Position numbers and translations under genes: made by a program. The notes beneath the pieces are model-generated. The model was given only the letters and a program-made list of their open reading frames with translations. It ran no database searches and was not told the DNA's origin. This document shows positions 1,660-45,298 of a DNA stretch of 64,000 bases, piece after piece (position 1 is the first letter of the stretch; the number at the start of each line of letters is the position of its first letter). Where the stretch lies: the NCBI GenBank assembly GCA_003153935.1, contig PMCA01000011.1, positions 67,912 to 131,911 on the forward strand, read 5' to 3'. The stretch is from Elusimicrobiota bacterium (GTDB lineage: Bacteria; CAYTYR01; UBA6262).

Positions 1660-1676
1660 ACCCCTTTCCTCAATGG

Positions 1677-2042: not shown

Positions 2043-2088
2043 AATTTATCGCCTCCCCCTTTTGTTGAGTTCGTTGAAAACCTGAACT

Positions 2089-2904: not shown

Positions 2905-2905
2905 T

Positions 2906-3565: not shown

Positions 3566-5119
3566 TTATTTCCTCTCCTGCTCTATTTTCAACATATTTT
3601 CGCGGGAATATTCCTCGATCCGGCTGGAAGTCAGGATATGAGGCGTGACAAAGATCATCAGGTCGACTTTCTGAACTGTATCGCTGTTTTGCCGGAACAG
3701 GGCCCCCAGCAAGGGAATGCTGCCCAGGATCGGGATCTTATAAGAAACCTTGGATTTGCGGGTGGTGGTCAAACCTCCGATTACCACGGTTTTGCCGTCG
3801 CGCACGTTAACCTTGGTAGAAGCTTTCCGGAGAGATCTTATCGGGATCCCGATGTTTTCCCCGTTCTGGAAGGATACTTCCGGTTCCAGCTCCAGGTTAA
3901 CTACGTTACCCTCTTTAATATGCGGCGTAACGCCCAGGATTATACCGACATCCAGAAATTCTATGGCGTACTGAGGATTACCCTTGGCGTCATAGCCGGA
4001 AAATTGGTTATACGGGAACTTATCGGTTATTTCTATCCTGGCCTTTTCATTGTTGACCACCGTAATGGTGGGATTGGACAGGAGTTCGGCCTTATTGGTA
4101 GTTACCAGCGCGTTGATCATGGCCCGGAATTTATCTGTTACTTCGCCGTAAACCAGGCTAGTGCCCAGGCCCTGCGTAACATAACCCAGATTCTGGGTAT
4201 CCGTAGCTATGGGTGGGGTGTTGTACACGGTATTAAAAGTGAAAGTCTGGCCATGGCTGCCAGGCTGGTAGATCCACTGGGCGCCGATCTGGCTCAAAAC
4301 ATTGGAATTCACTTCAACTAATTCCGCGCTGATGATAACCTGGGGAGTTTCCCGGTCCAATTTCAGCACTAGGTCCGCGATCTTATCCAGAATATTATTC
4401 TGATCCTTAACTACCAAGGAGTTCAGGCTTTCATCCACATCCGCGGCTCCGTCCGAAGACAGGGTCTTGGCGATCTCATCCTTTACTTTGGCCGCGGAGG
4501 CGTATTGCAAGGTGAAAACACGGGTTTGAACTTCGGTGCCGGACCCGGCGGGCCGTTCTGAACCGGCCGATTTCACGTCCAGCGCGTCAATGACATCAAT
4601 GATACGGTTAAAATTCCTATAGGTATCGGAAACTATCAGAACTTTGGTCTCGCGGTCCACGTCGATATTACCTTGCGCGCTTAACACATTGACCACCGTG
4701 GTCTTAGCTTGCAGCGGATCCATGTTCTTGATGTTGAAGATCCGGGTATCGATCTGGGTGGGCAGGAGAGCCGAGATCTCGATAATATTTTTATCCGGGA
4801 AAACCTTATAGGCGAAACCGCTGTTGGTGAGAATGGAGGTCAGCACGTCTTCGATCGGTACATCCTTAAAAAAGAAATTAACCTTGCGGCCCCGAACCTT
4901 GTCCACCAGATAAAAATTTATGTTGTTCTGCTGGGACAGGAGTCGGAGAGCATCGTCCAGGTCGACGTTGCGGAAATCGATGGAGATTTTCTTGGCTCGG
5001 ACCAGATCCCAAAAATTCGGATTGTCCGCGGCCCAAAGCCGGGCCGTCGGCAGCGGCCCCGGTACTATCCAGGAAACCGCCAGGAACAGCGCTATTGCCA
5101 AGATTATTTTTTTATACAT
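3566..5119 (-). CDS. pilQ: Type IV pilus secretin PilQ
   Basis: 517 aa. Signal peptide, N-terminal AMIN/N0-like region, C-terminal secretin domain (VISAELVEVNSN, GGLTTTRKSKVSYKIPILGSIPLLGALFR, LMIFVTPHIL). Confidence 0.85.
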   Translation of the reverse strand: MYKKIILAIALFLAVSWIVPGPLPTARLWAADNPNFWDLVRAKKISIDFRNVDLDDALRLLSQQNNINFYLVDKVRGRKVNFFFKDVPIEDVLTSILTNSGFAYKVFPDKNIIEISALLPTQIDTRIFNIKNMDPLQAKTTVVNVLSAQGNIDVDRETKVLIVSDTYRNFNRIIDVIDALDVKSAGSERPAGSGTEVQTRVFTLQYASAAKVKDEIAKTLSSDGAADVDESLNSLVVKDQNNILDKIADLVLKLDRETPQVIISAELVEVNSNVLSQIGAQWIYQPGSHGQTFTFNTVYNTPPIATDTQNLGYVTQGLGTSLVYGEVTDKFRAMINALVTTNKAELLSNPTITVVNNEKARIEITDKFPYNQFSGYDAKGNPQYAIEFLDVGIILGVTPHIKEGNVVNLELEPEVSFQNGENIGIPIRSLRKASTKVNVRDGKTVVIGGLTTTRKSKVSYKIPILGSIPLLGALFRQNSDTVQKVDLMIFVTPHILTSSRIEEYSRENMLKIEQERK

Positions 5120-5123: not shown

Positions 5124-5678
5124 TCAACCTCCCCTGACCCTCAAAGTTATAGTTTTCGCATCGTTTTTTAGCAATACCCGGTTCTTTAAAATACTTATGA
5201 CCAGGTAAGCTTTTTTACCTTTGATATAAAGATATTCGCCTTCGTGCACTACTTGACCGTTAATGACCGCCAAGGCTTTATTCTTGTACCAGGCTATGCC
5301 TGTAAGCTCCAGCAGGTCTTCCTCTTTAGCGGGAGTTACCGCTACAGGACCGGGAGTTACCGTATTATTCTCCGGGCTCGAATCGCCTGCACCGACAAAG
5401 GGATCCCGGCCCCAAGCTTGGCCGCTGCTGTCACCAGCCGCTTCCGGTGTTGATCCCAGTACGGCGAATTCCTTCTCCGTCGTATTGGCCCTGGTCGATG
5501 GTACGGACTCAACCGGTACCGCAGTGTCCGTCACTTCTCCCGTCGCCGCGGGCGCGCTTTCCGGTGCCGGAGTTGGTTTTAATACCATCTGTTTGTAAAC
5601 AAATAAAATAGCCAGTCCCAGCGCGACCAGGATAATGATTTGCTTTTTGTCGGGTGACTTCTTTCCTTCCGGAGCCAT
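5124..5678 (-). CDS. PilP-like pilus assembly protein (membrane anchor, Pro/Ala-rich linker, C-terminal beta domain)
   Basis: 184 aa. N-terminal TM helix, a low-complexity linker rich in Pro, Ala, Thr and Glu, and a C-terminal KALAVINGQVVHEGEYL...LLKNDAKTITLRV like PilP/GspC beta-sandwich. Sits between pilO and pilQ. Confidence 0.5.
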   Translation of the reverse strand: MAPEGKKSPDKKQIIILVALGLAILFVYKQMVLKPTPAPESAPAATGEVTDTAVPVESVPSTRANTTEKEFAVLGSTPEAAGDSSGQAWGRDPFVGAGDSSPENNTVTPGPVAVTPAKEEDLLELTGIAWYKNKALAVINGQVVHEGEYLYIKGKKAYLVISILKNRVLLKNDAKTITLRVRGG

Positions 5679-5680: not shown

Positions 5681-6244
5681 TTATCCTTCACTGCTAATGA
5701 TATACGTATATACCTGCAGGGTAACATCGATATAAGGCAGCTTTTCCGTATTGCGGGTGATCTTCAGGCTTTCCACCTTGATCAACCGTGGCAGTTTTTT
5801 CAAGTTAGCTAAATATTCGCCCAAATTACGGTAACGGCAGCGCATGGTGATCTCGATCGGCAGCCGGTTATAGGACAAACCTCCCTGCTGTTCCCCTGTT
5901 TCCAGGGGTTTAGTATTGATCGAAACATAAGTGATATTAGCCTGGTTGGCCACAGTGGCCAGGGCTTGCAGCAAGCTGGGGATCTGCTTGGAATCCGGCA
6001 GTTTATTCCTAAAGTACTGCCATTGCTGTTCCATCTTACCGGCTTCTTCGCGGATCTTATTCAGGTCCCGCAGAAATTCGTAGGCTCGTTGTATCTCATC
6101 GTTTATTTGTTGTATCTCCGCTTTTTGCTGCGCGATCTTATCACGGGCCGGCTGGATAAAGAAATACTGGCTGAAGCCGGCGATACCGGCGAAGATCAGG
6201 AAGTATTTCAATAAAGCCTTTTCTTTCGCGCCTATCTTTTTCAT
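5681..6244 (-). CDS. pilO: Type IV pilus assembly protein PilO
   Basis: 187 aa. N-terminal TM, coiled coil, C-terminal ferredoxin-like region. Sits between pilMN and pilP-like. Confidence 0.7.
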   Translation of the reverse strand: MKKIGAKEKALLKYFLIFAGIAGFSQYFFIQPARDKIAQQKAEIQQINDEIQRAYEFLRDLNKIREEAGKMEQQWQYFRNKLPDSKQIPSLLQALATVANQANITYVSINTKPLETGEQQGGLSYNRLPIEITMRCRYRNLGEYLANLKKLPRLIKVESLKITRNTEKLPYIDVTLQVYTYIISSEG

Positions 6245-8004
6245 GGTTGGCCGCCAAGCTCGTCTTTTAGTTTACACTGCACCTCGAACGTTATAAAATT
6301 TTTATTCTGTCCTGCCGCTTCCTGCTCCTTTTGCAGGGAGATCAAGTCGGTATCCTTAAAATAGGCCGATTTTTCCAGTGCTTGCAAGAACTGGGCCAGG
6401 ACCGCCTCCGGCCGGTCTCCTCCCAGCATCACCATGCCTTTTAAATTGAGAATGGGTAAGAGTGACGGCGGTGTTACTCTCGGAGTGCCAGCAGCTTCGG
6501 CTCCGGTGGTCGGCGGCGGAACCGCGGAGGCGTCAATTTTTTCCTTTTCAAAGGAAAGTTCATCCAAAATTACCCGGCCGGGGGTTATGTTGCTCAGGGA
6601 CTTGAGCATTTCTACCCATTTAGGATCTCCGACCGTCAATAGGTTGATTAAATTTTGCCGGGTGGTCATTTTTTCTTTTAATTGCTGCAGTTCATAGGCC
6701 TGGGATACCTGCTGTTTAATATCATCCAGGGCCGTCTGGTTGCTGGACACGATCTTCTGATAAGTCCTGATTTGCATGTACAATGAAATATAGACCATGC
6801 CAAAAATGAAAACTATCAGGAAACTGATAATGGCTGTCATAGCGCTGCGGGCAGTCTTAGAGGCCTGCTCCTTCAGCTCCTGCGGCAACAGGTTGATGCC
6901 TTTGGTACCGGTCAGCGCCGCGCCGACAGCAATGGATAATCGCGGGCTCAGTTCGGCCAGTTCTTTTTGGCGCTCCTCCGGCAAGTCCATCTGTATGTTT
7001 TTTAGGGGTTGGCTTACTTCGACGTCCATGCCTAAAGCGCCTTGCAGGAATTCACGCAACCCTTTTAATTCCGCGTTGCCGCCCAACAAAACTACTTTGG
7101 CCACCCGCCGGCCGCGCGATTCTTCTCGATAATAGTCCAGGGAACGGCGTATTTCGTTGGCCAACCGCTCCATCACCGGCCGCACTAAAGGCACGATCTG
7201 GTTGCTATTGATCTCGGGGGTCAACTGCTGGGGATTTTTTTCATCCGGAATGCCCCAGTTCTTTTTCAGGATATCCGCCTGATTTATATCTATTTCTATC
7301 TGCCCGCTGTCAGAGATCAGGGTGCCAACCATAGCCCGGGTGATGGTGTTGCCGCCTAGCGGAATCTCCCGGTTAAAGACCAGGGTTTCCCCAAAGAATA
7401 TGTTGATCGTGGTGGCTTCGGCGCCGGTATTGACCACGGCCAGGGCCTCATCAGCCTTGAAATAATCATTTTTCTTAAAGATCTCCCGCAGGGCGAAAGG
7501 CGCGACAGTGACGCTTTGCGGGCGTATCTGCACGTTCTGCAGCAGGGCCAGGTGCTGGTCGATAACGAATTTCTCTACGGCTACTACCAGCAGTTCCAGC
7601 TTCTTAACATTTTTATCGGTAACTTCTCCCAATACCTGATAATCTACTACCGCGTTCTCAATAGGGAAGGGGATGTGCTCCTTGGCTTCCCATTTCACCG
7701 CCTCCAGCAATTCATCTTTGGGCATGTTCGGCACCAACACTTTGCGTACCGACACGCGCTGGCCGGAGATCACCGTAACTATTCTGGTTTTTTTAAGATT
7801 GATCCCTTCGATACTTTTGCGCAATACCTCCAGGACTACTTCCATGGAAACATTTTCTTTTTTCTCGGTACTTAAGGGAAATTCACCTATGCGGTAGTCC
7901 ACTACCGCCAAGCCATTGACGCTTTCTTTCAGCACGATGACCTTAACCGCGGTGGTACCGATATCCAAACCCACCAAAGGTTGTATGTTACGGATGAATT
8001 TCAC
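6241..8004 (-). CDS. pilMN: PilM-PilN fusion protein (actin-like ATPase PilM fused to bitopic PilN)
   Basis: 587 aa. N-terminal ~360 aa PilM/FtsA-like (VGLDIGTTAVKVIVL, VVNTGAEATTINIF), then the INLLP motif that starts PilN, a TM helix (AMTAIISFLIVFIFGMVYISLY) and a periplasmic domain. Confidence 0.8.
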   Translation of the reverse strand: MKFIRNIQPLVGLDIGTTAVKVIVLKESVNGLAVVDYRIGEFPLSTEKKENVSMEVVLEVLRKSIEGINLKKTRIVTVISGQRVSVRKVLVPNMPKDELLEAVKWEAKEHIPFPIENAVVDYQVLGEVTDKNVKKLELLVVAVEKFVIDQHLALLQNVQIRPQSVTVAPFALREIFKKNDYFKADEALAVVNTGAEATTINIFFGETLVFNREIPLGGNTITRAMVGTLISDSGQIEIDINQADILKKNWGIPDEKNPQQLTPEINSNQIVPLVRPVMERLANEIRRSLDYYREESRGRRVAKVVLLGGNAELKGLREFLQGALGMDVEVSQPLKNIQMDLPEERQKELAELSPRLSIAVGAALTGTKGINLLPQELKEQASKTARSAMTAIISFLIVFIFGMVYISLYMQIRTYQKIVSSNQTALDDIKQQVSQAYELQQLKEKMTTRQNLINLLTVGDPKWVEMLKSLSNITPGRVILDELSFEKEKIDASAVPPPTTGAEAAGTPRVTPPSLLPILNLKGMVMLGGDRPEAVLAQFLQALEKSAYFKDTDLISLQKEQEAAGQNKNFITFEVQCKLKDELGGQP

Positions 8005-8028: not shown

Positions 8029-8994
8029 TTAATATAAAGCCGCATTGCTGTAAACATTACTGCTGATCTGATCCCAGATGGAAGTTATATTGGTATTCGC
8101 CAAAGTACTCGGCATCACCCGGAAGATGGTAGCTCCCGGTCCGGGAGTACTGGTCAACACGCAACTGCGCACATATTTCTCGGTGAAACTGGCTCCGGAT
8201 ATGTTGTTAATGCGGCAGCGCGAGCGGATGCGTATCCAGGGCACTTCGATCTCGCTCATTTGCACCCGGTTCCCGCTATAACCGGTGATATTACACTGCA
8301 AATAATTAACGTCGGTAACAACAGCCGGAAAAATATCGTTCCACTGGTTGGTTCCGGGATCAACGGCCCGAGTATATCTAACCGTGTAAGTTACGCCGTC
8401 AGTCGAAGTAGACCAGGAATAATTTGTCGGCCGTCCCGCCGCTGCCGCTCCCTGGCGCCTCATTCTTATTTCATTAACGGCGTAATTAGAGCCGTTGGGG
8501 AACTGGATGGTCAAAGTTACCAGCGGGCCGGGGTTATTGACGGTCCGCCAACTGCTCGCCATATTACCATCCACGGCATTAGCCAGGACATTCGCTCCTT
8601 GTACGCCCACATTGGAAGTAATATTAGCGATACCAAAAGGCGCCGGATTAGTACTCAAAGCCAGATTCCAATTATCAACAAGGAAACTGTAACTTACCGA
8701 AAGATTATTTGGCAAATTCTCTGTCTGGGGACCGAAAGTTCCCAGGTTCCCGGCTGCCGGCTGGATCGTGTTCCAGATATTCAAGGAATTATTCTGTAAA
8801 TATTGCACCGCGCGGGCCTGGGCCGCGTCGGCGGCATAGAAAGCCTGGATGCCAGCTTGTTTAACGGCTACGTCCGCCGTACCCCGCCCGGTCAATTCTA
8901 TATAGGCGACCACTATGCCAGCGACCATGATAACGAAGAAAAATACGAAAATTAAGGCAAATCCGTTCTTTTTAGTTAATATTTTTAACGACAT
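8029..8994 (-). CDS. PilX-N family minor pilin-like protein with C-terminal discoidin (F5/8 type C)-like domain
   Basis: 321 aa. N-terminal hydrophobic PilX_N-like segment (GFALIFVFFFVIMVAGIVVAYIEL...AGIQAFYAADAAQARAV). C-terminal part matches the F5/8 type C pattern (ANAVDGNMASSWRT..PLVTLTIQFPNGSNYAVNEIRMRR...STDGVTYTVRY...VQMSEIEV). Confidence 0.6.
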   Translation of the reverse strand: MSLKILTKKNGFALIFVFFFVIMVAGIVVAYIELTGRGTADVAVKQAGIQAFYAADAAQARAVQYLQNNSLNIWNTIQPAAGNLGTFGPQTENLPNNLSVSYSFLVDNWNLALSTNPAPFGIANITSNVGVQGANVLANAVDGNMASSWRTVNNPGPLVTLTIQFPNGSNYAVNEIRMRRQGAAAAGRPTNYSWSTSTDGVTYTVRYTRAVDPGTNQWNDIFPAVVTDVNYLQCNITGYSGNRVQMSEIEVPWIRIRSRCRINNISGASFTEKYVRSCVLTSTPGPGATIFRVMPSTLANTNITSIWDQISSNVYSNAALY

Positions 8995-9564: not shown

Positions 9565-9945
9565 TTAATAATTTCCAACGTAAGTTTCCAGTCTAGTCAC
9601 TGGATTGGTCGCCTGTTTAGCGGCCACATAGGAAACGCTGACCACCACGTCTTTTATCTGCCCGGGCAGGGCGCCGATGGGAGTGACAACTACTTGATAT
9701 GAATAATCTACATAAGGAGCGGCATAGGATGTCAGAGCCACCGGATTGACATTGGCGAAGGAGAGATTCTTTATGCTCTCCATTCTTTCCTGCGCCAGGG
9801 TAAGCGCTATGGAATTTTTCCCGGATAGCGAGTCATGATATTGTCCTTCACCCATAATAACCACTACCTCGGCCAAGCCGACCGCCAGGAGCGCGAAGGC
9901 GAAGATTATCTCAACAACCGTAAAACCGTGAGCATTCTTGAACAT
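9565..9945 (-). CDS. Minor pilin (PilV/GspI-like) with prepilin N-terminal methylation motif
   Basis: 126 aa. AHG|FTVVEIIFAFALLAVGL class III signal. Confidence 0.65.
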   Translation of the reverse strand: MFKNAHGFTVVEIIFAFALLAVGLAEVVVIMGEGQYHDSLSGKNSIALTLAQERMESIKNLSFANVNPVALTSYAAPYVDYSYQVVVTPIGALPGQIKDVVVSVSYVAAKQATNPVTRLETYVGNY

Positions 9946-10045: not shown

Positions 10046-10594
10046 CTAGTTGCTCTGAGGTGTGCCATTGGAAACATAAATCGATGTTCCCGCTGCGGTT
10101 ACTGCTCCGGTAGCCGCAGTTGTGCACGCCGTGTTCACCCGGCCGGTGCCGTTGGACCAGATCACGTAATATCCTTGGGCATTGACATAAAAGCCATACT
10201 CCACGGCTCCCGCTGCCGGCGAGAACGGATCCATTAATTCCGCGCTCAGCATGATCGGGCCGTTGGTTCCCAGCACGTTAGTAGTATGGTCAACAGTCAA
10301 GTGCGTGGTCATCCAACCCGTACCGGATACTCTTGAACCAGTATACGCCGCCTGTGCGCCGGTATCGGTATTATCAGGATACTTGGCTAACCCAGTAGAG
10401 CGTGGCGCAGCCGCATAAGCCTCTACGGCAGTACGCAGGGTCGCCAGATTTGACCTGGCCTTGGATTTTGCTCCCTCGTCCTGCATCCCTCTGAAACGTG
10501 GCAAACTAATACCGATTAAAATAGCAATGATTGCCATCACTATCAGAAGCTCGATAAGGGTAAATCCTTCCTTGTTCTTAAAAGCTCTCATCAT
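10046..10594 (-). CDS. pilA: Type IV major pilin / GspG-like pseudopilin (PilA-like)
   Basis: Class III signal MMRAFKNKEG|FTLIELLIVMAIIAILIGISLP. The ORF track start at 10648 adds an unlikely 28-aa leader, so the internal Met at 10594 is preferred. Mature part is rich in Gly, Thr and Ala, as in pilins. Confidence 0.7.
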   Translation of the reverse strand: MMRAFKNKEGFTLIELLIVMAIIAILIGISLPRFRGMQDEGAKSKARSNLATLRTAVEAYAAAPRSTGLAKYPDNTDTGAQAAYTGSRVSGTGWMTTHLTVDHTTNVLGTNGPIMLSAELMDPFSPAAGAVEYGFYVNAQGYYVIWSNGTGRVNTACTTAATGAVTAAGTSIYVSNGTPQSN

Positions 10595-10652
10595 TTTTTT
10601 CACCTCCTTTCTTTTTGAAATATACCACAATTCACTTACTCTATTCAAGTTT

Positions 10653-11861
10653 TTACTTAACCACCTTCATCATATCAAACATCGGCAAGAAGACGCTGGC
10701 CAGCAGGAAGCCCACGGCCGAGCCCACCAGAATCAGGAACACAGGTTCGATCAGAGTAGTAAGCTTTTTAACGCTATAACTGACGTTGGTATCATAAAAA
10801 TCAGCTATCTTGGTGAGCATGGTGTCCAGACTGCCGGATTCTTCGCCGACCGCGATCATCTGGATGGTATCCGGCGGGAATTCCTCACTGATACGCAACG
10901 GCTCAGCGATCTTGCTACCTTCAGTTACGCCTTCCCTGACCCGCCTGATAACCCGGGCGATAATTTCGTTGCCTACAACTTTTTCCACTATCTCCAAAGA
11001 TTCCAGGATAGGTACGCCGCTGGCTGTTAAAGTAGCCAGGGTGCGGGCAAACCTGGCGATGGCTATTTTGCGGGCCAGCACACCCACTACCGGGACCTTC
11101 AACAGGTATTTATCAAACATCAGGGTGCCGGCGGGAGTGGCAAAATACCATTTCAGCGTGACCCAGACCCCGATAAAACCGGCGATAATTACATACCAGA
11201 ATTTCCGGACTATCTGGCTGAAAATAAATACTATCTGCGTCGGCATCGGTAATTTGACGCCGGCTTTCAGGAATACATCAACGAACATCGGGATGAGAAA
11301 GATGGACAGGAACATGATCACGGAGAACCCGACTATCACCAGGATGATGGGATAAACCATCGCGCCTTTTATTTTTTCTTCCAGGTCCGCCTGGTGTTCG
11401 GCGAAAATGGCCAGACGGTTCAAGACCGTATCCAGGGTGCCGCTGACCTCGCCGGCATGTACCATGTGGATCGTCAATTTATTGAAGACCCGCGGATGCT
11501 TGGCCAAGGCGTCGGAAAAAGTGCCGCCGGCCTCGATACCGCGGTAGACGTCCTGGATGATCTCCCGGAACTTGCGGTTTTCCACCTGTTTGGTCAAGGT
11601 ACGCAAACTGGTCAGTAATGACAAGCCCGCACCAATCATATTGGCTAACTGTACGTTAAAAAGGATCAGGTCCTCGTTCTTTACTTTGACAAACCTGTCG
11701 CCAAAACCGAGCTTGATCCCGGATTTTTGTTCCGTGATATCGGTTACAAAATAGCCGATGCTTCCTAATTTGGACGCCAAGGCTTCCCGGTTCTTGGCTT
11801 CCATCACGCCTTTTATCTGTTTGCCCATTTCGTCCCGGGCTTTATAAACGAAAACTGCCAT
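10653..11861 (-). CDS. pilC: Type IV pilus inner-membrane platform protein PilC (GspF family)
   Basis: 402 aa. Two GspF repeats, three TM segments, typical PilC N-terminus. Confidence 0.9.
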   Translation of the reverse strand: MAVFVYKARDEMGKQIKGVMEAKNREALASKLGSIGYFVTDITEQKSGIKLGFGDRFVKVKNEDLILFNVQLANMIGAGLSLLTSLRTLTKQVENRKFREIIQDVYRGIEAGGTFSDALAKHPRVFNKLTIHMVHAGEVSGTLDTVLNRLAIFAEHQADLEEKIKGAMVYPIILVIVGFSVIMFLSIFLIPMFVDVFLKAGVKLPMPTQIVFIFSQIVRKFWYVIIAGFIGVWVTLKWYFATPAGTLMFDKYLLKVPVVGVLARKIAIARFARTLATLTASGVPILESLEIVEKVVGNEIIARVIRRVREGVTEGSKIAEPLRISEEFPPDTIQMIAVGEESGSLDTMLTKIADFYDTNVSYSVKKLTTLIEPVFLILVGSAVGFLLASVFLPMFDMMKVVK

Positions 11862-11879: not shown

Positions 11880-13583
11880 TTAATCTTCCTGGGTGGCCCT
11901 GATCACCTCGTCCACCGTGGTAACGCCTTGCAGAACTTTCAATATACCGTCATCGCGCATGGTTTTCATCCCGGCCAGCACCGCTTCCTTGCGCACTACG
12001 TCCATAGAGGTTTTCTGGACGATCAGGCTGCGGATCTTATCATTAGGCAACATAAGCTCGAAAATACAAATACGTCCCTTGTAGCCGGTACCCATGCAGG
12101 TCTTACAGCCTTTGCCATGGTATACCTTCACCCCTTTTTTTGCCGGGTCAATACCGGCCTGCTGCAATAGTCCGTCCGGTGGTTTGAATTCTTCCTTGCA
12201 ATTGGGGCAGATCTTGCGTACCAGGCGCTGGCCGATAACCGCCAGCACCGATGAGGAAACCAGGAACGGCTCCACACCCATATCTACCAACCGGGTAACC
12301 GCGCCCGGCGCGTTATTGGTATGCAGGGTGCTGAAGACCAAATGACCGGTAAGAGCCGCCTGGATGGCGATCTCCGCCGTCTCCAGGTCTCTGATTTCTC
12401 CGACCATCACCACGTCCGGGTCCTGACGCAGAATAGCGCGCAAGCCGGAGGAAAAGGTCAGCCCGGCCTTAACGTTGACCTGCGCCTGCCGGATAAGTTT
12501 TAACCTATATTCCACCGGGTCCTCAACGGTTATGATATTTTTATCGATGGTATTAATAACATTCAAGGAGCTGTAAAGGGTGGTGGTTTTACCGCTGCCG
12601 GTAGGCCCCGTCACCAAGACGATACCGTAAGATTTTTTAATCGTTTTATTAAATTCTTCCAGGACATCCGGCGCGAACCCAAGTTGTTCCAGCCCCAGCA
12701 GGGCTTTGGATACGTCCAGGATCCTCATGACGATATTTTCGCCGTAAATAGTGGGCAAGGTAGAGACACGCATGTCCACCTGCCGGTTCTCCACCTTGAT
12801 GCGGAACCGGCCGTCCTGCGGCACGCGTTTTTCGGCGATATCCATTTCGCTCATGATCTTGACGCGTGACAAAATAGCGGCCTGGATGTTCTTAGGCGGC
12901 GCCGGCACTTCCTGCATCACCCCGTCTATGCGATAACGGATGCGGAGCATGTTCTCTTCCGGCTCGATATGTATGTCGCTGGCTCCATCCCGGATAGCAT
13001 TCATGATTAGCAGGTTCACCAGTTTTATGACCGGCGCTTCTTCCGCCAGGTCCTGTAATTTTTTAGCCTCGATGTCATGTTCGCCAGTCCCGAGCAGTTC
13101 GCCTTCGTCCTCTTCGATCTTCTTGATCACTTCGTCCATGGTGCCGGTGACGCCGTAATACTGGTCGATCGCCCTTTTAATATCGCTGTCCGTAGCCAGC
13201 GCCGGTTCCACCGTGCAACCCGCTTTCAGGCTGACTTCGTCGATAGCAAAAACGTTCAGAGGATCCGCCATGGCTACAGTTAAAGTATCGCCGATCTTGA
13301 ACAACGGCACCAGCTGGTATTTCCTGGCAACGTATTCTGGTACCAGGTTGACCGTTTCCGGGTCCACCAGGTAATCCTTCAGGTCGACATGCGGTATGCC
13401 GAGCTGCTCACCGAGAAAACTGACCAGGGCCTCTTCACTGATCAGGTTCAGCCGCACTAACACCTTGCCCAGCCTCTCGCCGGATTCATGCTGTACTTTC
13501 AAGGCCTCATCGATCTGCTGTTTGCTTACCAGCCCAGCCTCTACCAGTATTTCCCCTAATTTTTTCTTCTCGCCTTTTACCAC
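11880..13583 (-). CDS. pilB: Type IV pilus assembly ATPase PilB (GspE family)
   Basis: 567 aa. GspE_N/MshEN N-domain, Walker A GPTGSGKTTTLYS, Asp/His boxes, tetracysteine motif CPNCK...CKTCMGTGYKGR. Confidence 0.9.
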   Translation of the reverse strand: MVKGEKKKLGEILVEAGLVSKQQIDEALKVQHESGERLGKVLVRLNLISEEALVSFLGEQLGIPHVDLKDYLVDPETVNLVPEYVARKYQLVPLFKIGDTLTVAMADPLNVFAIDEVSLKAGCTVEPALATDSDIKRAIDQYYGVTGTMDEVIKKIEEDEGELLGTGEHDIEAKKLQDLAEEAPVIKLVNLLIMNAIRDGASDIHIEPEENMLRIRYRIDGVMQEVPAPPKNIQAAILSRVKIMSEMDIAEKRVPQDGRFRIKVENRQVDMRVSTLPTIYGENIVMRILDVSKALLGLEQLGFAPDVLEEFNKTIKKSYGIVLVTGPTGSGKTTTLYSSLNVINTIDKNIITVEDPVEYRLKLIRQAQVNVKAGLTFSSGLRAILRQDPDVVMVGEIRDLETAEIAIQAALTGHLVFSTLHTNNAPGAVTRLVDMGVEPFLVSSSVLAVIGQRLVRKICPNCKEEFKPPDGLLQQAGIDPAKKGVKVYHGKGCKTCMGTGYKGRICIFELMLPNDKIRSLIVQKTSMDVVRKEAVLAGMKTMRDDGILKVLQGVTTVDEVIRATQED

Positions 13584-13602: not shown

Positions 13603-13986
13603 TTACTTCTTCATGCCTTGTTCAATGGTTTGGTTAATCTTCCTGATAAGTTCTTCCGGTTCGAATGGCTTGGTCATATAAACGTCGGCTCCGGTCTTAA
13701 AACCAGTCTCCTTATCCACTTCCTGCATGCGCGCGGTCAGCATGATGATCGGAATATGTTTATATTTGTCGTCAAATTTTAATATCCGGCAAACTTTGAA
13801 ACCGTCCATTTTGGGCAACATTATATCCAGGACTATCAGGTCCGGGTTTTCCGTCCGGGCCATTTCCAAGCCCTGGAAGCCATCCATAGCCAAGACAATG
13901 GTAAACCCAGCACTCTCCAAATTCATTTTCACTAATTCCCTGATCAAAGCGTCATCTTCAACTACCAGGATCTTTTTACCGGCCAT
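13603..13986 (-). CDS. Stand-alone response regulator receiver protein
   Basis: 127 aa REC domain (KILVVEDDALIREL...LIVLDIMLPKMDG...MLTAR...YMTKPF). Confidence 0.8.
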   Translation of the reverse strand: MAGKKILVVEDDALIRELVKMNLESAGFTIVLAMDGFQGLEMARTENPDLIVLDIMLPKMDGFKVCRILKFDDKYKHIPIIMLTARMQEVDKETGFKTGADVYMTKPFEPEELIRKINQTIEQGMKK

Positions 13987-14012
13987 TGCTTCCTCCTCAC
14001 AGAATACAGTTG

Positions 14013-14103
14013 CGAGTTATTAAGTTACGAGTGAGCGAGTTTTGGATTAAATTATTAATTTATGAATACCCTAACTCGTAACTCGAAACACGAACTCGTA
14101 ACT
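14013..14103. repeat. Intergenic direct and inverted repeats (AACTCGTAACT x2 direct, AGTTACGAGT inverted) between the two receiver genes
   Basis: AGTTACGAGT at 14023-14032. AACTCGTAACT at 14073-14083 and 14093-14103. These can form alternative long-range hairpins in the minus-strand transcript just upstream of the RBS of the 13603..13986 gene. Confidence 0.35.
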
Positions 14104-14106
14104 GTT

Positions 14107-14472
14107 TTATTCAAGCAGTTTCGTAATTTTTTCCGCCAGGCTTAACGGATCAAAAGGCTTGGTTATGTATTCATCAGCACCGGCAGCCAGTCCCTTTTCG
14201 ATCTCGTCTTTCTGCGCTTTGGCCGAGATCATGATGACCTTGGTGCCCGCGGTCTCCGGATGGCTTTTTATCTGCCGGCAAACCTCGTAGCCGTTCAGAT
14301 CCGGCATCATCACGTCCAGCAGGACCAGGTCGGCTTTTACCTCCAGCGCCTTAGCCAGCCCTTCCCGCCCATTATGAGCGCGAATGATCGTAAACTTGTC
14401 TGGTTCGAAACTATATTCGAACAGGTCCAAGATCAAAGGATCATCATCTACGATCAATATTTTTTTTGTCAT
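14107..14472 (-). CDS. Stand-alone response regulator receiver protein
   Basis: 121 aa REC domain (KILIVDDDPLILDL...LVLLDVMMPDLNG...ISAK...YITKPF). Confidence 0.8.
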   Translation of the reverse strand: MTKKILIVDDDPLILDLFEYSFEPDKFTIIRAHNGREGLAKALEVKADLVLLDVMMPDLNGYEVCRQIKSHPETAGTKVIMISAKAQKDEIEKGLAAGADEYITKPFDPLSLAEKITKLLE

Positions 14473-14476
14473 CCTA

Positions 14477-17020
14477 TCAACCCATGATCCTGTCGATTTC
14501 CGCTACCAGCTCCTTGACTTTGAACGGCTTGGTTATATAGCGTAAAGCCCCCAATTCCAGGCCTTTCCTTTTATCTTCATCCATCTTGCGGGCGGAAATA
14601 ATTATTACCGGTATCCGCTGGATAAATAGGTCCGGATCGGCCTTCAGCTGCTTCAGTACTTCATACCCGTCCAGCTTGGGCATCATCACATCCAGCAGGA
14701 TCAGAGCCGGTTTCAATTCTTTCGCTTTAGCCAGAGCCTCTTCGCCGTCTATGGCCACTTTGGTGTTATATCCCTCTTCCGACAGGGTGATCTTGATAAG
14801 TTCAACTACGTTAGGCTCATCGTCAGCGATCAGGATGGTGCCGCGCTTCTTGCCGCCGCGCACACCCAGGGTCTCGCTGACCTTGGATAACAATTGCTTC
14901 TTATCTACCGGTTTATTCAGATAATCAACCACGCCCATCTGGCGGGTCTGGCTCTCTTTATCCTGTAAGATAGAAACTATCATTACGGGAATATCTTTGG
15001 TTTGGGTGTCTTCTTTGAGCGCTTTCAATACCTGGATGCCATCCATATCAGGCAATTTTATATCCAGGAGTATTAAATCTGGTTTGGCTTCCCGCGCTTG
15101 CTGTAATGCCTGGTACCCGGTCAGGGCCCAGATAACGTGATAGCCTTCATCCTCCAGGTATATCTTATGCAGGTTGAGGATGTCCTGTTCGTCGTCCACC
15201 AGCAGAATGGTTTTTTGCCCGGGTAGTGCGTGCCGGCCGCGGGCCTCACCCAACAGCTCGCCTTCACTGGAAACAGGCCGGAAAGCCGGCAAAGTAAAGC
15301 AGAAACGGCTGCCTTTGTTGGGCCCGTCACTTTCGGCCCAGACCTTGCCTTCATGCATCTCTACGATCCTCTTGACAATGGCCAATCCCAGGCCGGCCCC
15401 GCCGGTTTGCCGGGTCGATGATGAATCCACCTGGTAGAATTTTTCGAATATTTTTTCCAGTTCCTCCGGGGGAATGCCGATACCGCTGTCACTGATGCGC
15501 GCTTCCACCTGGTTCTTGTCTTTTTCAAAAATTTCAATGATGACTTTGCCGTTTTCCGGGGTGAACTTAAAAGCGTTAGTGAGGAAGTTGGCCAGTACCT
15601 GCAGCAACTTATCTTTATCGGCGTAGACAAAGGGCAGGTCATCCTGGATGATGGCGGTCAAACTTATCTTTTTCTGGTCGAAATGGGAACGCATGCGCTC
15701 GATCACGGTTTCCGTCAGCGCTTTCAGGCTGATCGAAGCTTTGTTCATCCGGACCTGGCCGGCTTCGATGCGGGAGAGGTTCAGCAGGTCGGTGATCAAA
15801 GTGGTCAAATGGTCGCTTTGCTCTTCCACGATCTTGAGGAATCTTTTCTGGCTATCGCTGATCTCGCCGGCACGGCCGGCTAGCATCAGGGCGGTATAGC
15901 CCTTTATCGAAGTTAAAGGGGAGCGCAACTCATGGGAAACCATGGAGAGGAAATCGCTCTTGGCCTGGTTTAATTCGCGTAACTTCACCACTAACTGCTG
16001 TTCCTGGGAATAAAGCCGGGCGTTTTCCAGCGCTACTGCGGCCTGGTCGCCAAAAGCCCGTACCAGGTCGATCTGGTGCTGCGTGAATTGTCCGGGATTC
16101 TTGGTGTAAAGGCAAAAAGCGCCTTTAGCCATGTTCTTTACTATCAGGGGGACGCAAAGCAGGGAAGCCATTTTTTCTTGCTGGACGATGGGATTGGACT
16201 GGTACGCCTCATCCCGGTTTAACTCCGGGATGATGACCACGCGTTTTTCCTGTATGGTCTTCCCGGTAATACTGTTATCTACCCGGACAGACTGGGGGTG
16301 AAGGTTGGTATCAACCCCGTAGCTGGCGCTGAGGATCAACTCCTGGCCGGTTTCGTTGAGCAGCCGCAAAGTACAGGCATCCGCCCTGGCAAATTCGGTT
16401 ATGGACCTGACGATAAAATCCAGCACTTCTTTCAAGTCCAGGCTGGCGCCCATCAAGGTGCATAATTTGATCAGTGACTGCAATTCTTTTTGCTGTAACC
16501 AATTCTCTTTTTCCACTTGTTTGAGAATGGTTATATCGGTGAAAAGGTAGATAGAGCCGGCTATTTTGTTCTGGCGGTAGAGAGGCAGGACCTTAACCAT
16601 GGTTTCCATGATGTGACCGCTCTTAGACCGGATGGTGGTTTGGATGAGGCGTTGCTCAGCGGCTTTGCGGTAATTGATCTCTGTTTTAAGCTTATCGCGT
16701 TCGGATTCAACTATCAATTCGGACAGGTTTTTGCCCCGCAACTCGGACGCGGTAAATTCCAGGAATCTTTCGCCGCTGTAATTGACAAAGGTGATGCTCT
16801 CAGTCAGATCGCAGGCAACAACGGCGTCCACTCCTTCGGTCAGAACGCTGGTGGCGATCTCTCTTTCCCCGTCCATGTCGCCGAAATCAAGATCAGGGTC
16901 CTCAGTGCGCAGGGCCAGCTTTCTTATGCCCCTGTTCTGCCAAAAAATACCGGCCAATAACACTGTGATGATACCGATGAAAACGAGCAAGAAGACATTG
17001 AAGACTTGATTGATGGTCAT
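14477..17020 (-). CDS. Hybrid sensor histidine kinase (TM-PAS-GAF-HisKA-HATPase_c-REC-REC)
   Basis: 847 aa. N-terminal TM, PAS-like and GAF regions, H-box SHELRSPLTSIKGY, ATP-binding G-boxes (DSGIGIP, GGAGLGLAIVKR), two C-terminal receivers (ILLVDDEQDI...LLDIKLPDMDG and ILIADDEPNV...LLDVMMPKLDG). Confidence 0.85.
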   Translation of the reverse strand: MTINQVFNVFLLVFIGIITVLLAGIFWQNRGIRKLALRTEDPDLDFGDMDGEREIATSVLTEGVDAVVACDLTESITFVNYSGERFLEFTASELRGKNLSELIVESERDKLKTEINYRKAAEQRLIQTTIRSKSGHIMETMVKVLPLYRQNKIAGSIYLFTDITILKQVEKENWLQQKELQSLIKLCTLMGASLDLKEVLDFIVRSITEFARADACTLRLLNETGQELILSASYGVDTNLHPQSVRVDNSITGKTIQEKRVVIIPELNRDEAYQSNPIVQQEKMASLLCVPLIVKNMAKGAFCLYTKNPGQFTQHQIDLVRAFGDQAAVALENARLYSQEQQLVVKLRELNQAKSDFLSMVSHELRSPLTSIKGYTALMLAGRAGEISDSQKRFLKIVEEQSDHLTTLITDLLNLSRIEAGQVRMNKASISLKALTETVIERMRSHFDQKKISLTAIIQDDLPFVYADKDKLLQVLANFLTNAFKFTPENGKVIIEIFEKDKNQVEARISDSGIGIPPEELEKIFEKFYQVDSSSTRQTGGAGLGLAIVKRIVEMHEGKVWAESDGPNKGSRFCFTLPAFRPVSSEGELLGEARGRHALPGQKTILLVDDEQDILNLHKIYLEDEGYHVIWALTGYQALQQAREAKPDLILLDIKLPDMDGIQVLKALKEDTQTKDIPVMIVSILQDKESQTRQMGVVDYLNKPVDKKQLLSKVSETLGVRGGKKRGTILIADDEPNVVELIKITLSEEGYNTKVAIDGEEALAKAKELKPALILLDVMMPKLDGYEVLKQLKADPDLFIQRIPVIIISARKMDEDKRKGLELGALRYITKPFKVKELVAEIDRIMG

Positions 17021-17056
17021 CTGTAATTATTACCTGCTTTTGAGAAAATTTTCGTT

Positions 17057-28323: not shown

Positions 28324-28332
28324 CCCTCCGGA

Positions 28333-31194: not shown

Positions 31195-31207
31195 CGAATA
31201 AAAAAAG

Positions 31208-45296: not shown

Positions 45297-45298
45297 GC

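What the first reader, a model, noticed from the sequence alone, without database searches (positions are those of the whole stretch)
8029..8994. Minor pilin-like protein carrying a discoidin (F5/8 type C) carbohydrate-binding-like domain: candidate pilus-tip adhesin
The N-terminus is a PilX-N type hydrophobic pilin-like helix. The C-terminal ~150 aa match the F5/8 type C pattern (A.DGN...S.W.....P..L.L.........V....R....S.DG..Y.V....E). A lectin-like module on a minor pilin would place a glycan-binding head at the pilus tip.
Basis: partly seen in the sequence, partly recalled or inferred. Interest (0 to 1): 0.6.

Follow-up and report, generated by a model that had tools for sequence, protein, structure and literature searches.

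The report
Pilus-tip minor pilin with inserted lectin-like domain
This gene encodes the capping subunit of a type IV pilus that has a sugar-binding-type (discoidin/CBM32) domain built into its middle, so the pilus probably carries its own adhesive head; the design is conserved across Omnitrophota-like uncultured bacteria but is a variation on a known theme.

Summary
The ORF lies on the minus strand (8029-8994, 321 aa). It matches Pfam F5_F8_type_C above the gathering score (35.1 vs 28.2 bits, E=1.7e-8). A confident AF2 model (pLDDT 90.6) superposes on CBM32 carbohydrate-binding modules (TM about 0.8).

Two corrections apply. The discoidin domain (aa ~120-250) is not C-terminal. It is inserted between strands b2 and b3 of the pilin sheet, and a conserved 70-aa C-terminal part completes the pilin fold. 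The window protein also gives no direct PilX_N hit, although 36 of 131 homologues do and 38 of 131 weakly hit GspK.

The protein has an invariant Gly-1 and no Glu5 or any acidic residue at +1 to +10 in 131/131 homologues. It is always the third gene of an I-J-K-like minor-pilin trio inside a PilB-PilC-pilin-PilMN-PilO-secretin operon with no PilY1 gene.

Best reading: it is the apical PilK/GspK/PilX-class subunit and displays a lectin-like head at the pilus tip. The ligand is unknown, because the canonical CBM32 galactose residues (His, Arg, Asn, aromatic) are absent.

The family has at least 139 members, mostly from Omnitrophota, and I found no description of it in the literature searched. 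It is a new variant of known modular or insertion-bearing tip pilins.

The parts
8029..8994 (-). Target gene: 321-aa PilK/GspK/PilX-class minor pilin with an inserted discoidin (F5/8 type C, CBM32-like) domain
   Evidence: ORF. PF00754 at 35.1 bits against cut-off 28.2. 19 close and at least 139 wider homologues. AF2 model with pLDDT 90.6.
8962..8994 (-). Short basic leader (aa 1-11, MSLKILTKKNG) ending in the invariant Gly-1. This is the putative prepilin-peptidase site G11|F12.
   Evidence: Gly present in 123/123 aligned sequences at this column. Cleavage itself is inferred, not shown.
8791..8961 (-). Pilin alpha1 helix (aa 12-68): a hydrophobic alpha1N without Glu5, then alpha1C carrying the family motif F-Y/W-x-A-E/D-A-(G/A)
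   Evidence: Helix 10-68 in the model. No Asp or Glu at +1 to +10 in 131/131 sequences. Weak GspK match over aa 10-87. PilX_N hits in 36/131 homologues.
8665..8739 (-). Pilin beta-strands b1-b2 (aa 86-110), ending in the conserved motif SY.F.VDNWNLA
   Evidence: Strands 86-94 and 97-110. Invariant F104, D107, W109, N110, L111 in the close family.
8245..8637 (-). Discoidin / F5_F8_type_C / CBM32-like beta-sandwich (aa ~120-250), inserted between pilin strands b2 and b3
   Evidence: Pfam. PDB profile hits to CBM32. Foldseek TM 0.76-0.84 to 2j1a, 4zxe and 2v72. pLDDT 88-97.
8032..8241 (-). C-terminal remainder of the pilin module (aa 252-321): strands b3 (252-263) and b4 (270-281), and a short terminal strand at 308-310 inside the near-invariant W307-D/N-E motif. 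The terminal strand is a candidate cis 'C-beta' strand.
   Evidence: Secondary structure. In the close family this is among the most conserved segments tabulated (H=0.63; only alpha1N, 0.57, and the short loop 165-170, 0.39, are lower). W307 and E309 are at least 90% conserved across 131 sequences. The functional analogy comes from PMC13533445.
8994..9530 (-). Minor pilin 2 (178 aa, G|VTIVELL, has Glu5), at the PilJ/GspJ-like position
   Evidence: N_methyl 29.1 bits. Weak hits to GspJ, HpsB and PRK10557. Conserved synteny.
9565..9945 (-). Minor pilin 1 (126 aa, G|FTVVEI, has Glu5), at the PilI/GspI/PilV-like position
   Evidence: Weak hits to PilV (E=1.3e-3), XpsI and GspI. Conserved synteny.
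10046..10648 (-). Major type IVa-like pilin (mature N-terminus FTLIELLIVMAIIAIL). The likely true start gives a 182-aa product, as called in L001.
   Evidence: N_methyl 36.3 bits. PDB hits to Geobacter PilA-N (E=2.7e-12), M. xanthus PilA and other T4aP pilins.
10653..11861 (-). Platform protein PilC/GspF
   Evidence: T2SSF, E=2.4e-63. PilC and GspF models.
11880..13583 (-). Extension ATPase PilB with an N-terminal MshEN c-di-GMP-binding domain
   Evidence: TIGR02538 PilB 678.4 bits (cut-off 675.65). NF053729 c-di-GMP motif 65.5 bits (cut-off 38). MshEN Pfam.
6241..8004 (-). PilM-PilN fusion (587 aa)
   Evidence: PilM_2 E=1.5e-46 and PilN E=2.5e-7. TIGR01175 182 bits against cut-off 133.
5681..6244 (-). 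PilO/GspM-like protein
   Evidence: PilO, E=2.7e-22.
5124..5678 (-). Conserved 184-aa protein at the PilP/GspC position, with no family hit in this window
   Evidence: No Pfam or NCBIfam hit. A conserved gene of about 178 aa sits at this position in L003-L006, with a faint T2SSC hit in L006.
3566..5119 (-). Secretin (PilQ/GspD-like)
   Evidence: Secretin E=7.9e-46, plus Secretin_N and STN.
13603..18490 (-). Upstream regulatory block: two single-domain response regulators, a PAS/GAF hybrid histidine kinase and a GAF-GGDEF cyclase
   Evidence: ORFs. Pfam annotations of the identical locus L001.

Best explanation
The gene encodes the apical (PilK/GspK/PilX-class) minor pilin of a type IVa-like pilus. 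Its globular pilin domain is split by a complete discoidin/CBM32-type beta-sandwich, inserted between the second and third strands of the pilin sheet. This is the same kind of mid-sheet position that the alpha-domain occupies in GspK.

Proposed mechanism:
1. The protein is anchored in the inner membrane by its hydrophobic alpha1N. It is probably cleaved after Gly11.
2. It joins the two upstream minor pilins (I-like and J-like, both with Glu5) to form the I-J-K initiation complex. Because it lacks Glu5, it sits on top of that complex.
3. No PilY1/PilC gene is present, so the protein supplies the last beta-strand of its own sheet in cis. The candidate is the conserved W-D/N-E strand at about aa 306-310.
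4. PilB, activated by c-di-GMP through its MshEN domain, polymerises the major pilin underneath the complex and pushes it out through the secretin.
5. The discoidin domain then sits at the very tip. Its variable apex loops bind a ligand, most probably a carbohydrate on a surface, a polymer or another cell, giving tip-mediated adhesion.

Shown here: the domain identity, the insertion topology (from a confident model), the absence of Glu5, the conserved gene order and the family distribution. Inferred: cleavage, tip location, the cis strand, ligand class and adhesion.
For: - **Discoidin domain.** PF00754 scores above its cut-off. It is present in 128/131 homologues. A CBM32 sequence profile gives E=5e-7. 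Foldseek gives E about 1e-8 with TM 0.76-0.84 to CBM32 modules solved with Gal, LacNAc, chitosan or alginate ligands.
- **Insertion topology.** The deep-MSA AF2 model has pLDDT 90.6 and pTM 0.82. It shows alpha1 at 10-68, strands at 86-94 and 97-110, the sandwich at 120-250, then strands at 252-263 and 270-281 and a short strand at 308-310.
- **PilK class.** Gly-1 is present in 123/123 sequences. No acidic residue occurs at +1 to +10 in 131/131. PilX_N hits 36/131 homologues, best E=2e-8. GspK hits 38/131, best E=2.8e-6. The top PDB hit of the pilin-only profile is ComZ, on the AEAGLQK helix, but at only E=0.41.
- **Published framework.** PilK homologues invariably lack Glu5. The I-J-K gene order is almost invariably syntenic. 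PilK supplies the terminal strand in cis when PilY1 is absent. PilK homologues in adhesin-less systems carry large insertions, and the GspK alpha-domain lies mid-sheet (PMC13533445; PMC8179133).
- **Context.** The same gene order (PilB-PilC-major pilin-minor ~125 aa-minor ~178 aa-this gene-PilMN-PilO) is found in the window and in 6 other loci. These range from 43% identical relatives to Omnitrophota at about 27% identity. None has a PilY1-family gene.
- **Machine type.** PilB reaches the T4aP equivalog cut-off and carries a c-di-GMP-binding MshE-type motif. The major pilin matches T4aP pilins.
- **Variable loops.** The loops that align with the CBM32 sugar-binding loops (aa 150-158 and 180-188) are the most variable parts of the domain in the wider family (H=2.26 and 2.40, against 0.9-1.7 for the strands). 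CBM32 sites lie in variable apex loops (PMC5291390).
- **Common ancestry of the whole architecture.** An Omnitrophota homologue aligns from aa 9 to aa 241, across both modules (E=1e-17).
Against: - No experiment exists for any family member.
- The canonical CBM32 galactose-site residues are absent. The His position is Arg150 (Glu or Gln in the wider family). The stacking aromatic position is Asn153. The Arg/Asn pair aligns with Q181 (or R180) and A186. Discoidin domains elsewhere bind lipids or proteins, so the ligand class is open.
- The window protein itself fails PF14341, PF07963 and the GspK equivalog cut-off.
- No multimer model of the I-J-K complex could be made.
- No prepilin peptidase or PilT gene lies in the 64-kb window.
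- The I-like and J-like assignments of the two upstream minor pilins rest on weak hits and on gene position.
Confidence: 0.65

Rival explanations
1. The locus is a type II secretion-like machine, and the protein is the GspK-like cap of a short pseudopilus. The discoidin domain would replace the GspK alpha-domain. It would contact cargo (for example glycosylated or giant exoproteins) or the secretin, rather than mediate adhesion.
For: - Weak GspK similarity in this protein and in 38/131 homologues.
- The ATPase also passes the GspE equivalog cut-off, and PilO also hits GspM.
- The Omnitrophota major pilins hit T2SSG.
- No PilT gene lies in the window.
- T2SS-like loci next to giant genes are described in Omnitrophota (bioRxiv 10.1101/2023.11.21.568195). 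Two Omnitrophota loci here are followed by a TpsB gene and a giant ORF.
Against: - The best ATPase model is T4aP PilB (678 bits).
- PilM reaches its subfamily cut-off, and a PilM-PilN-PilO set is present rather than GspC/L/M.
- The major pilin is about 155 aa when mature, and its alpha1N matches T4aP pilins better than GspG.
- A c-di-GMP-gated MshE-type ATPase and a flanking chemosensory cluster fit a regulated surface pilus.
- No GspH-like fourth minor pseudopilin is present.
Confidence: 0.15
2. It is a tip pilin, but the discoidin domain binds something other than a carbohydrate. Candidates are a protein receptor, a membrane lipid (as in factor V/VIII C2) or a mineral surface.
For: - The canonical CBM32 His/Arg/Asn/aromatic galactose site is missing.
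- The fold also matches APC10/DOC and IFT25, which are protein-binding discoidin folds, at TM about 0.6-0.78.
- By the authors' own statement, CBM32 specificity cannot be read from sequence (PMC5291390).
Against: - All of the best sequence and structure matches are bacterial carbohydrate-binding modules: CBM32 with Gal, LacNAc, GalNAc, chitosan, alginate or fucose.
- The NCBIfam 'NADase-type glycan-binding domain' model hits 47/131 family members.
Confidence: 0.2
3. The insertion has no external ligand. It acts only as a folding or timing device, or as a plug, for tip-complex licensing and secretin gating. This has been suggested for other insertions in PilK homologues.
For: [quoted passage not shown]
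Against: - A complete, well-conserved ligand-binding fold is retained in 128/131 members.
- The fold is duplicated or triplicated in some relatives (P0020, P0028, P0030, P0031). That is typical of avidity-driven binding modules, not of a timing loop.
- Its apex-equivalent loops are the most variable regions.
Confidence: 0.1
4. It is not a pilin at all. It would be a signal-anchored periplasmic or outer-surface discoidin protein that merely sits in the operon.
For: There is no N_methyl or PilX_N Pfam hit for this protein. Cleavage and incorporation into a filament have not been demonstrated.
Against: - Invariant Gly-1 followed by a ~20-residue hydrophobic stretch.
- A 59-residue alpha1 packed against a 4-stranded sheet in a pLDDT-90 model.
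- PilX_N and GspK hits in homologues.
- A fixed position directly after two bona fide minor pilins, with start/stop overlap.
Confidence: 0.05

Closest known systems
GspK (XcpX), the T2SS minor pseudopilin at the apex of the GspI-J-K tip complex (PDB 3CI0, 5VTM)
   Same: It lacks Glu5. It is the third gene after the I-like and J-like minor pilins. [quoted passage not shown] There is weak N-terminal sequence similarity.
   Different: The inserted domain is a ~130-aa discoidin/CBM32 beta-sandwich rather than the ~180-aa alpha-domain. The score is far below the GspK equivalog cut-off (18.6 vs 130). The host machine looks like a T4aP (PilB, PilMNO) rather than a T2SS.
PilX/PilK of type IVa pili (Pfam PilX_N, PF14341)
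   Same: Same class of apical minor pilin without Glu5. 36/131 family members hit PilX_N, and one is named 'Tfp pilus assembly protein PilX' by JGI.
   Different: Classical PilX/PilK proteins are small and recruit a separate PilY1/PilC adhesin, which donates the last beta-strand in trans. Here no PilY1 gene is present and the binding module is built into the pilin itself.
Insertion-bearing PilK analogues: Thermus ComZ (PDB 6QVI), Caulobacter CpaL, V. cholerae competence PilX
   Same: These are tip minor pilins in systems without PilY1, and they carry a large functional domain within the pilin fold. ComZ is the top (non-significant) PDB hit of the pilin-only profile, on the shared AEAGLQK helix motif.
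   Different: Their insertions lie between the sheet and the donor C-terminal strand, and they have other folds (a beta-solenoid in ComZ). Here the insertion is mid-sheet and is a discoidin domain (PMC13533445).
Modular lectin-bearing minor pilins: Streptococcus sanguinis PilC (ConA-like lectin module) and ETEC CofB (H-type lectin domain)
   Same: The concept is the same: a minor pilin presents a lectin-type module at the pilus tip (PMC8179133; PMC9934059; PMC6048534).
   Different: In those proteins the module is appended C-terminally through a linker, to a pilin with a canonical class III signal peptide. The lectin folds differ. In the InterPro survey of about 1,200 modular pilins, F5/8 type C on a pilin appears only once.
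CBM32 carbohydrate-binding modules (e.g. C. perfringens NagJ/GH84C CBM32, 2J1A; Paenibacillus chitosan-binding DD1, 4ZXE)
   Same: Same beta-sandwich fold (TM 0.76-0.84, 20-22% identity). The conserved scaffold motifs are present: A-x-D-G, W149, R177, P189, Y192, W194 and the terminal E250.
   Different: It is not attached to a glycoside hydrolase. The canonical Gal-site His/Arg/Asn/aromatic residues are not conserved.

Membership tests
F5/8 type C (discoidin) domain, Pfam PF00754 | Sequence score above the Pfam gathering threshold | tested here: met
   35.1 bits against 28.2, E=1.7e-8, aa 131-242 covering model positions 8-118 of 127. 128/131 homologues also match.
F5/8 type C (discoidin) domain, Pfam PF00754 | Eight-stranded beta-sandwich (jelly-roll-like) fold | tested here: met
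   AF2 pLDDT is 88-97 over aa 120-250. Foldseek gives probability 1.00 and TM 0.76-0.84 normalised to CBM32 targets.
CBM32 (CAZy family 32 carbohydrate-binding modules) | Closest sequence and structure relatives are characterised CBM32 modules | tested here: met
   PDB profile hits 2j7m/2j1a (E=5e-7), 2v5d, 4a41 and 4lks. The Foldseek top 20 is almost entirely CBM32.
CBM32 (CAZy family 32 carbohydrate-binding modules) | Canonical galacto-type site: a His after the conserved Trp, an aromatic at +3, and an Arg...Asn pair in the next apex loop (PMC5291390) | tested here: not met
   The aligned positions are R150, N153, Q181 (or R180) and A186. His and an aromatic never occur at these columns in 131 sequences. 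This excludes the canonical Gal site. It does not exclude carbohydrate binding in general.
CBM32 (CAZy family 32 carbohydrate-binding modules) | Demonstrated carbohydrate binding | not testable with these tools
   This needs recombinant domain and glycan-array, ITC or pull-down experiments.
Type IV pilin / class III signal peptide (PF07963, TIGR02532) | Gly at -1 followed by a ~20-residue hydrophobic alpha1N | tested here: met
   KKNG|FALIFVFFFVIMVAGIVVAY. Gly is present in 123/123 aligned sequences.
Type IV pilin / class III signal peptide (PF07963, TIGR02532) | Glu at +5 and an N_methyl motif hit | tested here: not met
   Position +5 is Phe. There is no acidic residue at +1 to +10 in 131/131 sequences. 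PF07963 gives no hit. This is the expected state for PilK/GspK-class subunits (PMC13533445).
Type IV pilin / class III signal peptide (PF07963, TIGR02532) | Pilin fold: a long N-terminal helix packed on a 4-stranded antiparallel sheet | tested here: inconclusive
PilX N-terminal domain, Pfam PF14341 | Significant match to the PilX_N model | tested here: inconclusive
   The window protein gives no hit at E<=1. 36/131 full-length homologues do hit, with best E=2e-8.
GspK (NCBIfam NF037980 equivalog) | Score above the equivalog cut-off, and the alpha-domain insertion | tested here: not met
   18.6 bits against cut-off 130, N-terminal 80 residues only. The inserted domain is a beta-sandwich, not the alpha-domain. 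The protein works like a GspK but is not a GspK orthologue.
PilI-PilJ-PilK tip initiation complex (PMC13533445) | Syntenic I-J-K gene order, with K lacking Glu5 and I and J retaining it | tested here: met
   The order is 9565-9945 (FTVVE), 8994-9530 (VTIVE), 8029-8994 (FALIF). The same order occurs in 6 other loci.
PilI-PilJ-PilK tip initiation complex (PMC13533445) | [quoted passage not shown] | not testable with these tools
   Only single-chain prediction was available. The candidate cis strand is aa 308-310 within the conserved W307-D-x-I motif.
Modular pilins sensu Raynaud et al. 2021 (PMC8179133) | A pilin module plus a functional domain that is not specific to T4P biology | tested here: met
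   A pilin module plus PF00754. It differs in that the module is inserted, not C-terminally grafted. It also lacks IPR012902, so it would have been missed by that survey.

The most novel reading that the evidence does not exclude
Omnitrophota and neighbouring uncultured lineages, which are proposed predators or parasites of other microbes, have dispensed with PilY1. Instead they build a CBM32-type lectin directly into the apical PilK subunit, at the GspK alpha-domain site. The hypervariable apex loops, and the 1-3 tandem copies of the domain, would set which host or prey surface glycan the pilus grabs. That would make this small gene a host-range determinant for a whole phylum of nanobacteria.
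Probability: 0.3. Interest if true: 0.65.

Novelty: new variant of a known kind. Interest (0 to 1): 0.45.

Why it matters
Type IV pili are nearly universal in Omnitrophota and are thought to mediate attachment to host or prey cells (PMC10066038), but no adhesin has been named. This gene offers a concrete, testable candidate: a 130-residue soluble domain that can be expressed and screened for ligands.

It also adds a third solution to how tip complexes acquire function. Besides a separate PilY1 and a C-terminally grafted module, a standard lectin fold can be inserted mid-sheet in PilK, at the position of the enigmatic GspK alpha-domain.

The protein lacks the N_methyl signature, so it is invisible to signature-based surveys of modular pilins. 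Such surveys therefore undercount this class.

Tried and rejected
- **Plus-strand reading.** The plus-strand reading of the given coordinates is full of stops.
- **First AF2 run.** The run with only the 19 close homologues gave pLDDT 65.7 with the pilin part unresolved. It was superseded by the 131-sequence run.
- **Pilin-only profile.** I built a profile with the discoidin domain excised in silico (alignment A4). Against PDB sequences it gave only non-significant hits: ComZ at E=0.41 and MtrC at E=0.68.
- **Upstream minor pilins.** PDB sequence searches with the two upstream minor pilins gave nothing informative.
- **Genome-collection scans.** The scan with the wide alignment failed for lack of a conserved stretch. 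The close-family scan found only 6 species-level genomes, with uninformative or inconsistent organism labels ('Elusimicrobia bacterium', 'uncultured Clostridia bacterium', 'bacterium'). The phylum of the window organism remains unresolved.
- **Mobile-element origin.** I considered and rejected a phage or plasmid origin. The window contains dnaA-dnaN-gyrB, parAB, yidC and a GC-skew switch.
- **Conserved disulfide.** I considered a conserved C260-C278 disulfide. It is rejected because position 278 is Val or Ile in several close homologues.
- **Literature.** Searches for a discoidin or F5/8 domain on a pilin found no description of this family.
Full report
**1. The observation.**
The coordinates 8029-8994 delimit an ATG-initiated ORF of 321 codons on the minus strand. 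The plus-strand frame is interrupted by stops. The start codon overlaps the stop codon of the preceding gene by one base (…CTATAATGTCG…). The next gene begins 24 nt after the stop. The ORF is therefore embedded in a tightly packed operon.

Pfam confirms the discoidin claim. F5_F8_type_C (PF00754) matches aa 131-242 with E=1.7e-8 and 35.1 bits, above the curated cut-off of 28.2. The related PF22633 falls just below its cut-off.

The PilX_N claim is not confirmed directly. Neither PF14341 nor the N_methyl motif PF07963 appears at E<=1. NCBIfam gives only a weak match of aa 10-87 to the N-terminus of GspK (E=1.1e-3, 18.6 bits against a cut-off of 130).

**2. Relatives.**
A word-indexed search of 5.8 billion proteins found 19 proteins of 321-362 aa at 43-100% identity. 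All come from metagenome-assembled genomes. They are either unnamed or labelled 'discoidin domain-containing protein' or 'hypothetical protein'. The window itself is identical to a contig of a Stordalen Mire peat MAG (GCA_003154495.1).

An exhaustive profile search of 1.84 billion cluster representatives returned 603 hits. Most are discoidin repeats in very large proteins. A set of 227-450-aa proteins, however, align from the N-terminal helix through the discoidin domain to the C-terminus.

A second profile search recovered at least 139 such proteins of 260-300 aa. Where named, they come from Candidatus Omnitrophota, and JGI calls one of them 'Tfp pilus assembly protein PilX'.

Across 131 aligned members:
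- 128 match PF00754.
- 112 match PF22633.
- 36 match PilX_N, with best E=2e-8.
- 38 weakly match the GspK model.
- 12 match Verru_Chthon cassette protein A.

An Omnitrophota member aligns with the window protein from aa 9 to aa 241 (28% identity, E=1e-17). The two-module architecture is therefore ancestral to the family, not an independent fusion. Some relatives carry two or three tandem discoidin domains at the same place (P0020, P0028, P0030, P0031).

**3. Structure.**
With only the close homologues, AF2 resolved the discoidin core but not the rest (pLDDT 65.7). With the 131-sequence alignment the model reaches mean pLDDT 90.6 and pTM 0.82.

The order of elements is:
- a 59-residue helix (10-68) and a short helix (70-77);
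- two strands (86-94, 97-110);
- the beta-sandwich (about 120-250);
- two long strands (252-263, 270-281) and short strands at 290-292 and 308-310.

This is the signature of a type IV pilin (alpha1 plus a four-stranded sheet) split by a domain inserted between its second and third strands. The discoidin domain is thus internal, not C-terminal.

Within the close family, the 70 residues that follow the domain belong to the best conserved parts of the protein. Strands b3-b4 have H=0.63, and only alpha1N (0.57) and the short loop 165-170 (0.39) are lower.

Foldseek against the PDB returns CBM32 carbohydrate-binding modules as the top hits. These include NagJ/GH84C CBM32 with galactose or LacNAc, CpGH89 and CpGH31 CBM32s, Paenibacillus chitosan-binding modules and AlyQ CBM32. 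Scores are E about 1e-8, TM 0.76-0.84 relative to the target, and 17-22% identity. A sequence profile finds the same modules.

**4. Pilin class.**
The residue before the hydrophobic helix is Gly in all 123 sequences that cover the column. No sequence of the 131 has Asp or Glu anywhere at +1 to +10.

By contrast, the major pilin (FTLIELL) and the two upstream minor pilins (FTVVEI, VTIVELL) all have Glu5.

According to PMC13533445:
- PilK/GspK/PilX homologues 'invariably lack Glu at +5', which marks them as the most apical subunit.
- The I-J-K gene order is almost invariably syntenic.
- In systems without PilC/PilY1, the K subunit supplies the last beta-strand of its own sheet in cis.
- K homologues in adhesin-less systems (CpaL, Thermus ComZ, V. 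cholerae competence PilX) carry large insertions.

The protein studied here fits each of these points. It is third in a trio of minor pilins and lacks Glu5. It has a mid-sheet insertion. It ends in a short strand inside a near-invariant W-D/N-E motif (W307 and E309 are at least 90% conserved in 131 sequences). No PilY1-type gene is present in any of the seven loci examined.

**5. The machine.**
All on the minus strand, the operon encodes:
- a GAF-GGDEF cyclase, a PAS/GAF hybrid kinase and two response regulators;
- PilB, PilC and a major pilin;
- the three minor pilins;
- a PilM-PilN fusion, PilO, a conserved small protein at the PilP position and a secretin;
- a CheW-CheR-CheY-CheB(-CheA) cluster downstream.

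PilB reaches the T4aP PilB equivalog threshold (678.4 against 675.65). It carries an MshE-type c-di-GMP-binding motif (65.5 against 38). It also passes the GspE threshold, so that distinction is not sharp.

The presence of PilM-PilN-PilO favours a pilus over a secretion pseudopilus. So do a major pilin whose alpha1N matches T4aP pilins and the chemosensory and c-di-GMP wiring.

The core order PilB-PilC-pilin-minor-minor-discoidin pilin-PilM(N)-PilO is preserved in relatives at 43-50% identity (L003, L005, L006). It is also preserved in three Omnitrophota genomes (L007-L009). The window is chromosomal and spans the replication origin (dnaA, dnaN, gyrB, parAB, GC-skew switch). No prepilin peptidase or PilT gene lies within it.

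**6. What the domain might bind.**
CBM32 modules bind sugars through variable loops at the apex of the sandwich. The canonical galacto-site uses a His just after the conserved Trp, an aromatic three residues later, and an Arg...Asn pair in the next apex loop. A calcium ion and a short helix cap one side (PMC5291390).

In the HMM alignment to NagJ CBM32, these positions correspond to R150, N153, Q181 (or R180) and A186. Across the family the 'His' column is Arg, Glu or Gln, and the 'aromatic' column is never aromatic. The canonical galactose site is therefore absent, and specificity cannot be predicted. The authors of PMC5291390 themselves state that sequence alone is insufficient to classify CBM32 binding.

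The scaffold positions are conserved: D142, W149, R177, P189, Y192, W194 and E250. The two loops that align with the sugar-binding loops are the most variable segments of the domain in the wider family (H=2.26 and 2.40, against 0.9-1.7 for the strands). This is compatible with diversifying ligand specificity but does not prove it.

From general knowledge of discoidin domains, and not tested here, the N- and C-termini lie together at the pole opposite the binding loops. That geometry makes the fold well suited to insertion in a loop with the binding face pointing outward.

**7. Explanation and rivals.**
The best-supported reading (about 0.65) is an apical PilK-class minor pilin that presents a lectin-like discoidin head at the tip of a c-di-GMP-regulated type IVa-like pilus. 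In this reading it fulfils both the initiation role of PilK and the adhesin role that PilY1 plays elsewhere.

The rivals are:
- a T2SS-like pseudopilus cap in which the domain handles cargo (0.15);
- a tip pilin whose domain binds a non-carbohydrate ligand (0.2, which overlaps with the main reading);
- an insertion that serves only assembly timing or gating (0.1);
- a non-pilin signal-anchored protein (0.05).

The evidence for and against each is listed in the structured fields.

**8. Comparison with the known, and novelty.**
The concept is established. Modular pilins present functional modules at pilus tips (S. sanguinis PilB vWA and PilC lectin; ETEC CofB H-type lectin). GspK and ComZ have domains inserted within the pilin fold (PMC8179133; PMC6048534; PMC13533445).

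In the InterPro survey of about 1,200 modular pilins, an F5/8 type C module follows the pilin signature in a single protein. It precedes the PilY1 domain in two proteins.

The family described here lacks that pilin signature and would have been missed by the survey. It comprises at least 139 clusters and is a fixed component of the pilus operon in Omnitrophota-like lineages. I found no description of it in the searched literature. The Omnitrophota papers mention type IVa pili and discoidin domains only in giant ORFs.

I therefore classify it as a new variant of a known kind: a PilK/GspK-class tip pilin whose mid-sheet insertion is a CBM32-type lectin fold. Interest is moderate (0.45). A specialist would find it neat rather than startling. 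It does, however, provide a concrete and easily testable adhesin candidate for a phylum whose host or prey interactions are an open question.

Noticed in passing
window 43510-52693 (and the GC-skew switch at about 44-46 kb): The window spans the chromosomal replication origin region. yidC, mnmE, gidB, parA and parB lie on the minus side. dnaA, dnaN and gyrB lie on the plus side. Cumulative GC skew turns at about 44-46 kb.
   Followed up: partly
window 11880-13583 (-), 17057-18490 (-), 32196-33428 (-): The pilus ATPase carries an MshEN domain with an MshE-type c-di-GMP-binding motif that scores above its cut-off. A GAF-GGDEF cyclase heads the operon, and a GAF-HD-GYP phosphodiesterase lies 14 kb away. 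This suggests that pilus extension is gated by c-di-GMP, as in MSHA pili.
   Followed up: partly
window 604-3445 (-); L001 15550-20966: A chemosensory cluster (CheW, CheR, CheY, CheB, then CheA) directly follows the secretin. In the full contig it is followed by a 712-aa PilM-like protein. The arrangement is conserved in relatives, and L003 adds an MCP.
   Followed up: no
window 6241-8004 (-): PilM and PilN are fused into one 587-aa protein. It resembles the Amuc_1101 family PilM-like protein of Akkermansia (E=1.4e-50, below the family cut-off). The secretin weakly resembles Amuc_1098. This hints at a PVC-type pilus lineage.
   Followed up: no
L008 5430-7493; L009 6045-7413: In Omnitrophota versions of the operon, a histidine kinase is inserted between the major pilin and the minor pilins. 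In L008 the I-position gene is a 250-aa protein with a response-regulator receiver domain plus a weak N_methyl pilin motif, which is an odd fusion.
   Followed up: no
L008 11714-15797; L009 12739-16810: Two of the three Omnitrophota loci have a TpsB-type transporter (POTRA_2/ShlB) and a very large ORF running off the contig just downstream of the pilus operon. This recalls the secretion-system/giant-gene linkage reported for Omnitrophota (bioRxiv 10.1101/2023.11.21.568195).
   Followed up: partly
proteins P0020, P0028, P0030, P0031: Some family members carry two or three tandem discoidin domains at the same insertion site (408-448 aa). This suggests the insertion site tolerates module expansion.
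   Followed up: partly
proteins P0023-P0027; After the family itself, the best-scoring discoidin matches are repeats inside 2,000-3,000-aa proteins (27-31% identity per repeat). The tip-pilin module may share ancestry with the repeats of large surface proteins.
   Followed up: partly
window 30739-31281 (-): A tadA-like tRNA adenosine deaminase ORF (MafB19-deam/dCMP_cyt_deam) abuts, and as listed overlaps, a tRNA-Arg(ACG) gene. That tRNA is the expected substrate of TadA.
   Followed up: no
window 19420-20274 (-), 20335-21165 (-), 26908-29763 (-): Upstream of the operon lie a CBM30/CBM11-like protein and an RpfB-like (G5 + 3D) protein. Two adjacent ~470-aa ORFs have no Pfam match.
   Followed up: no
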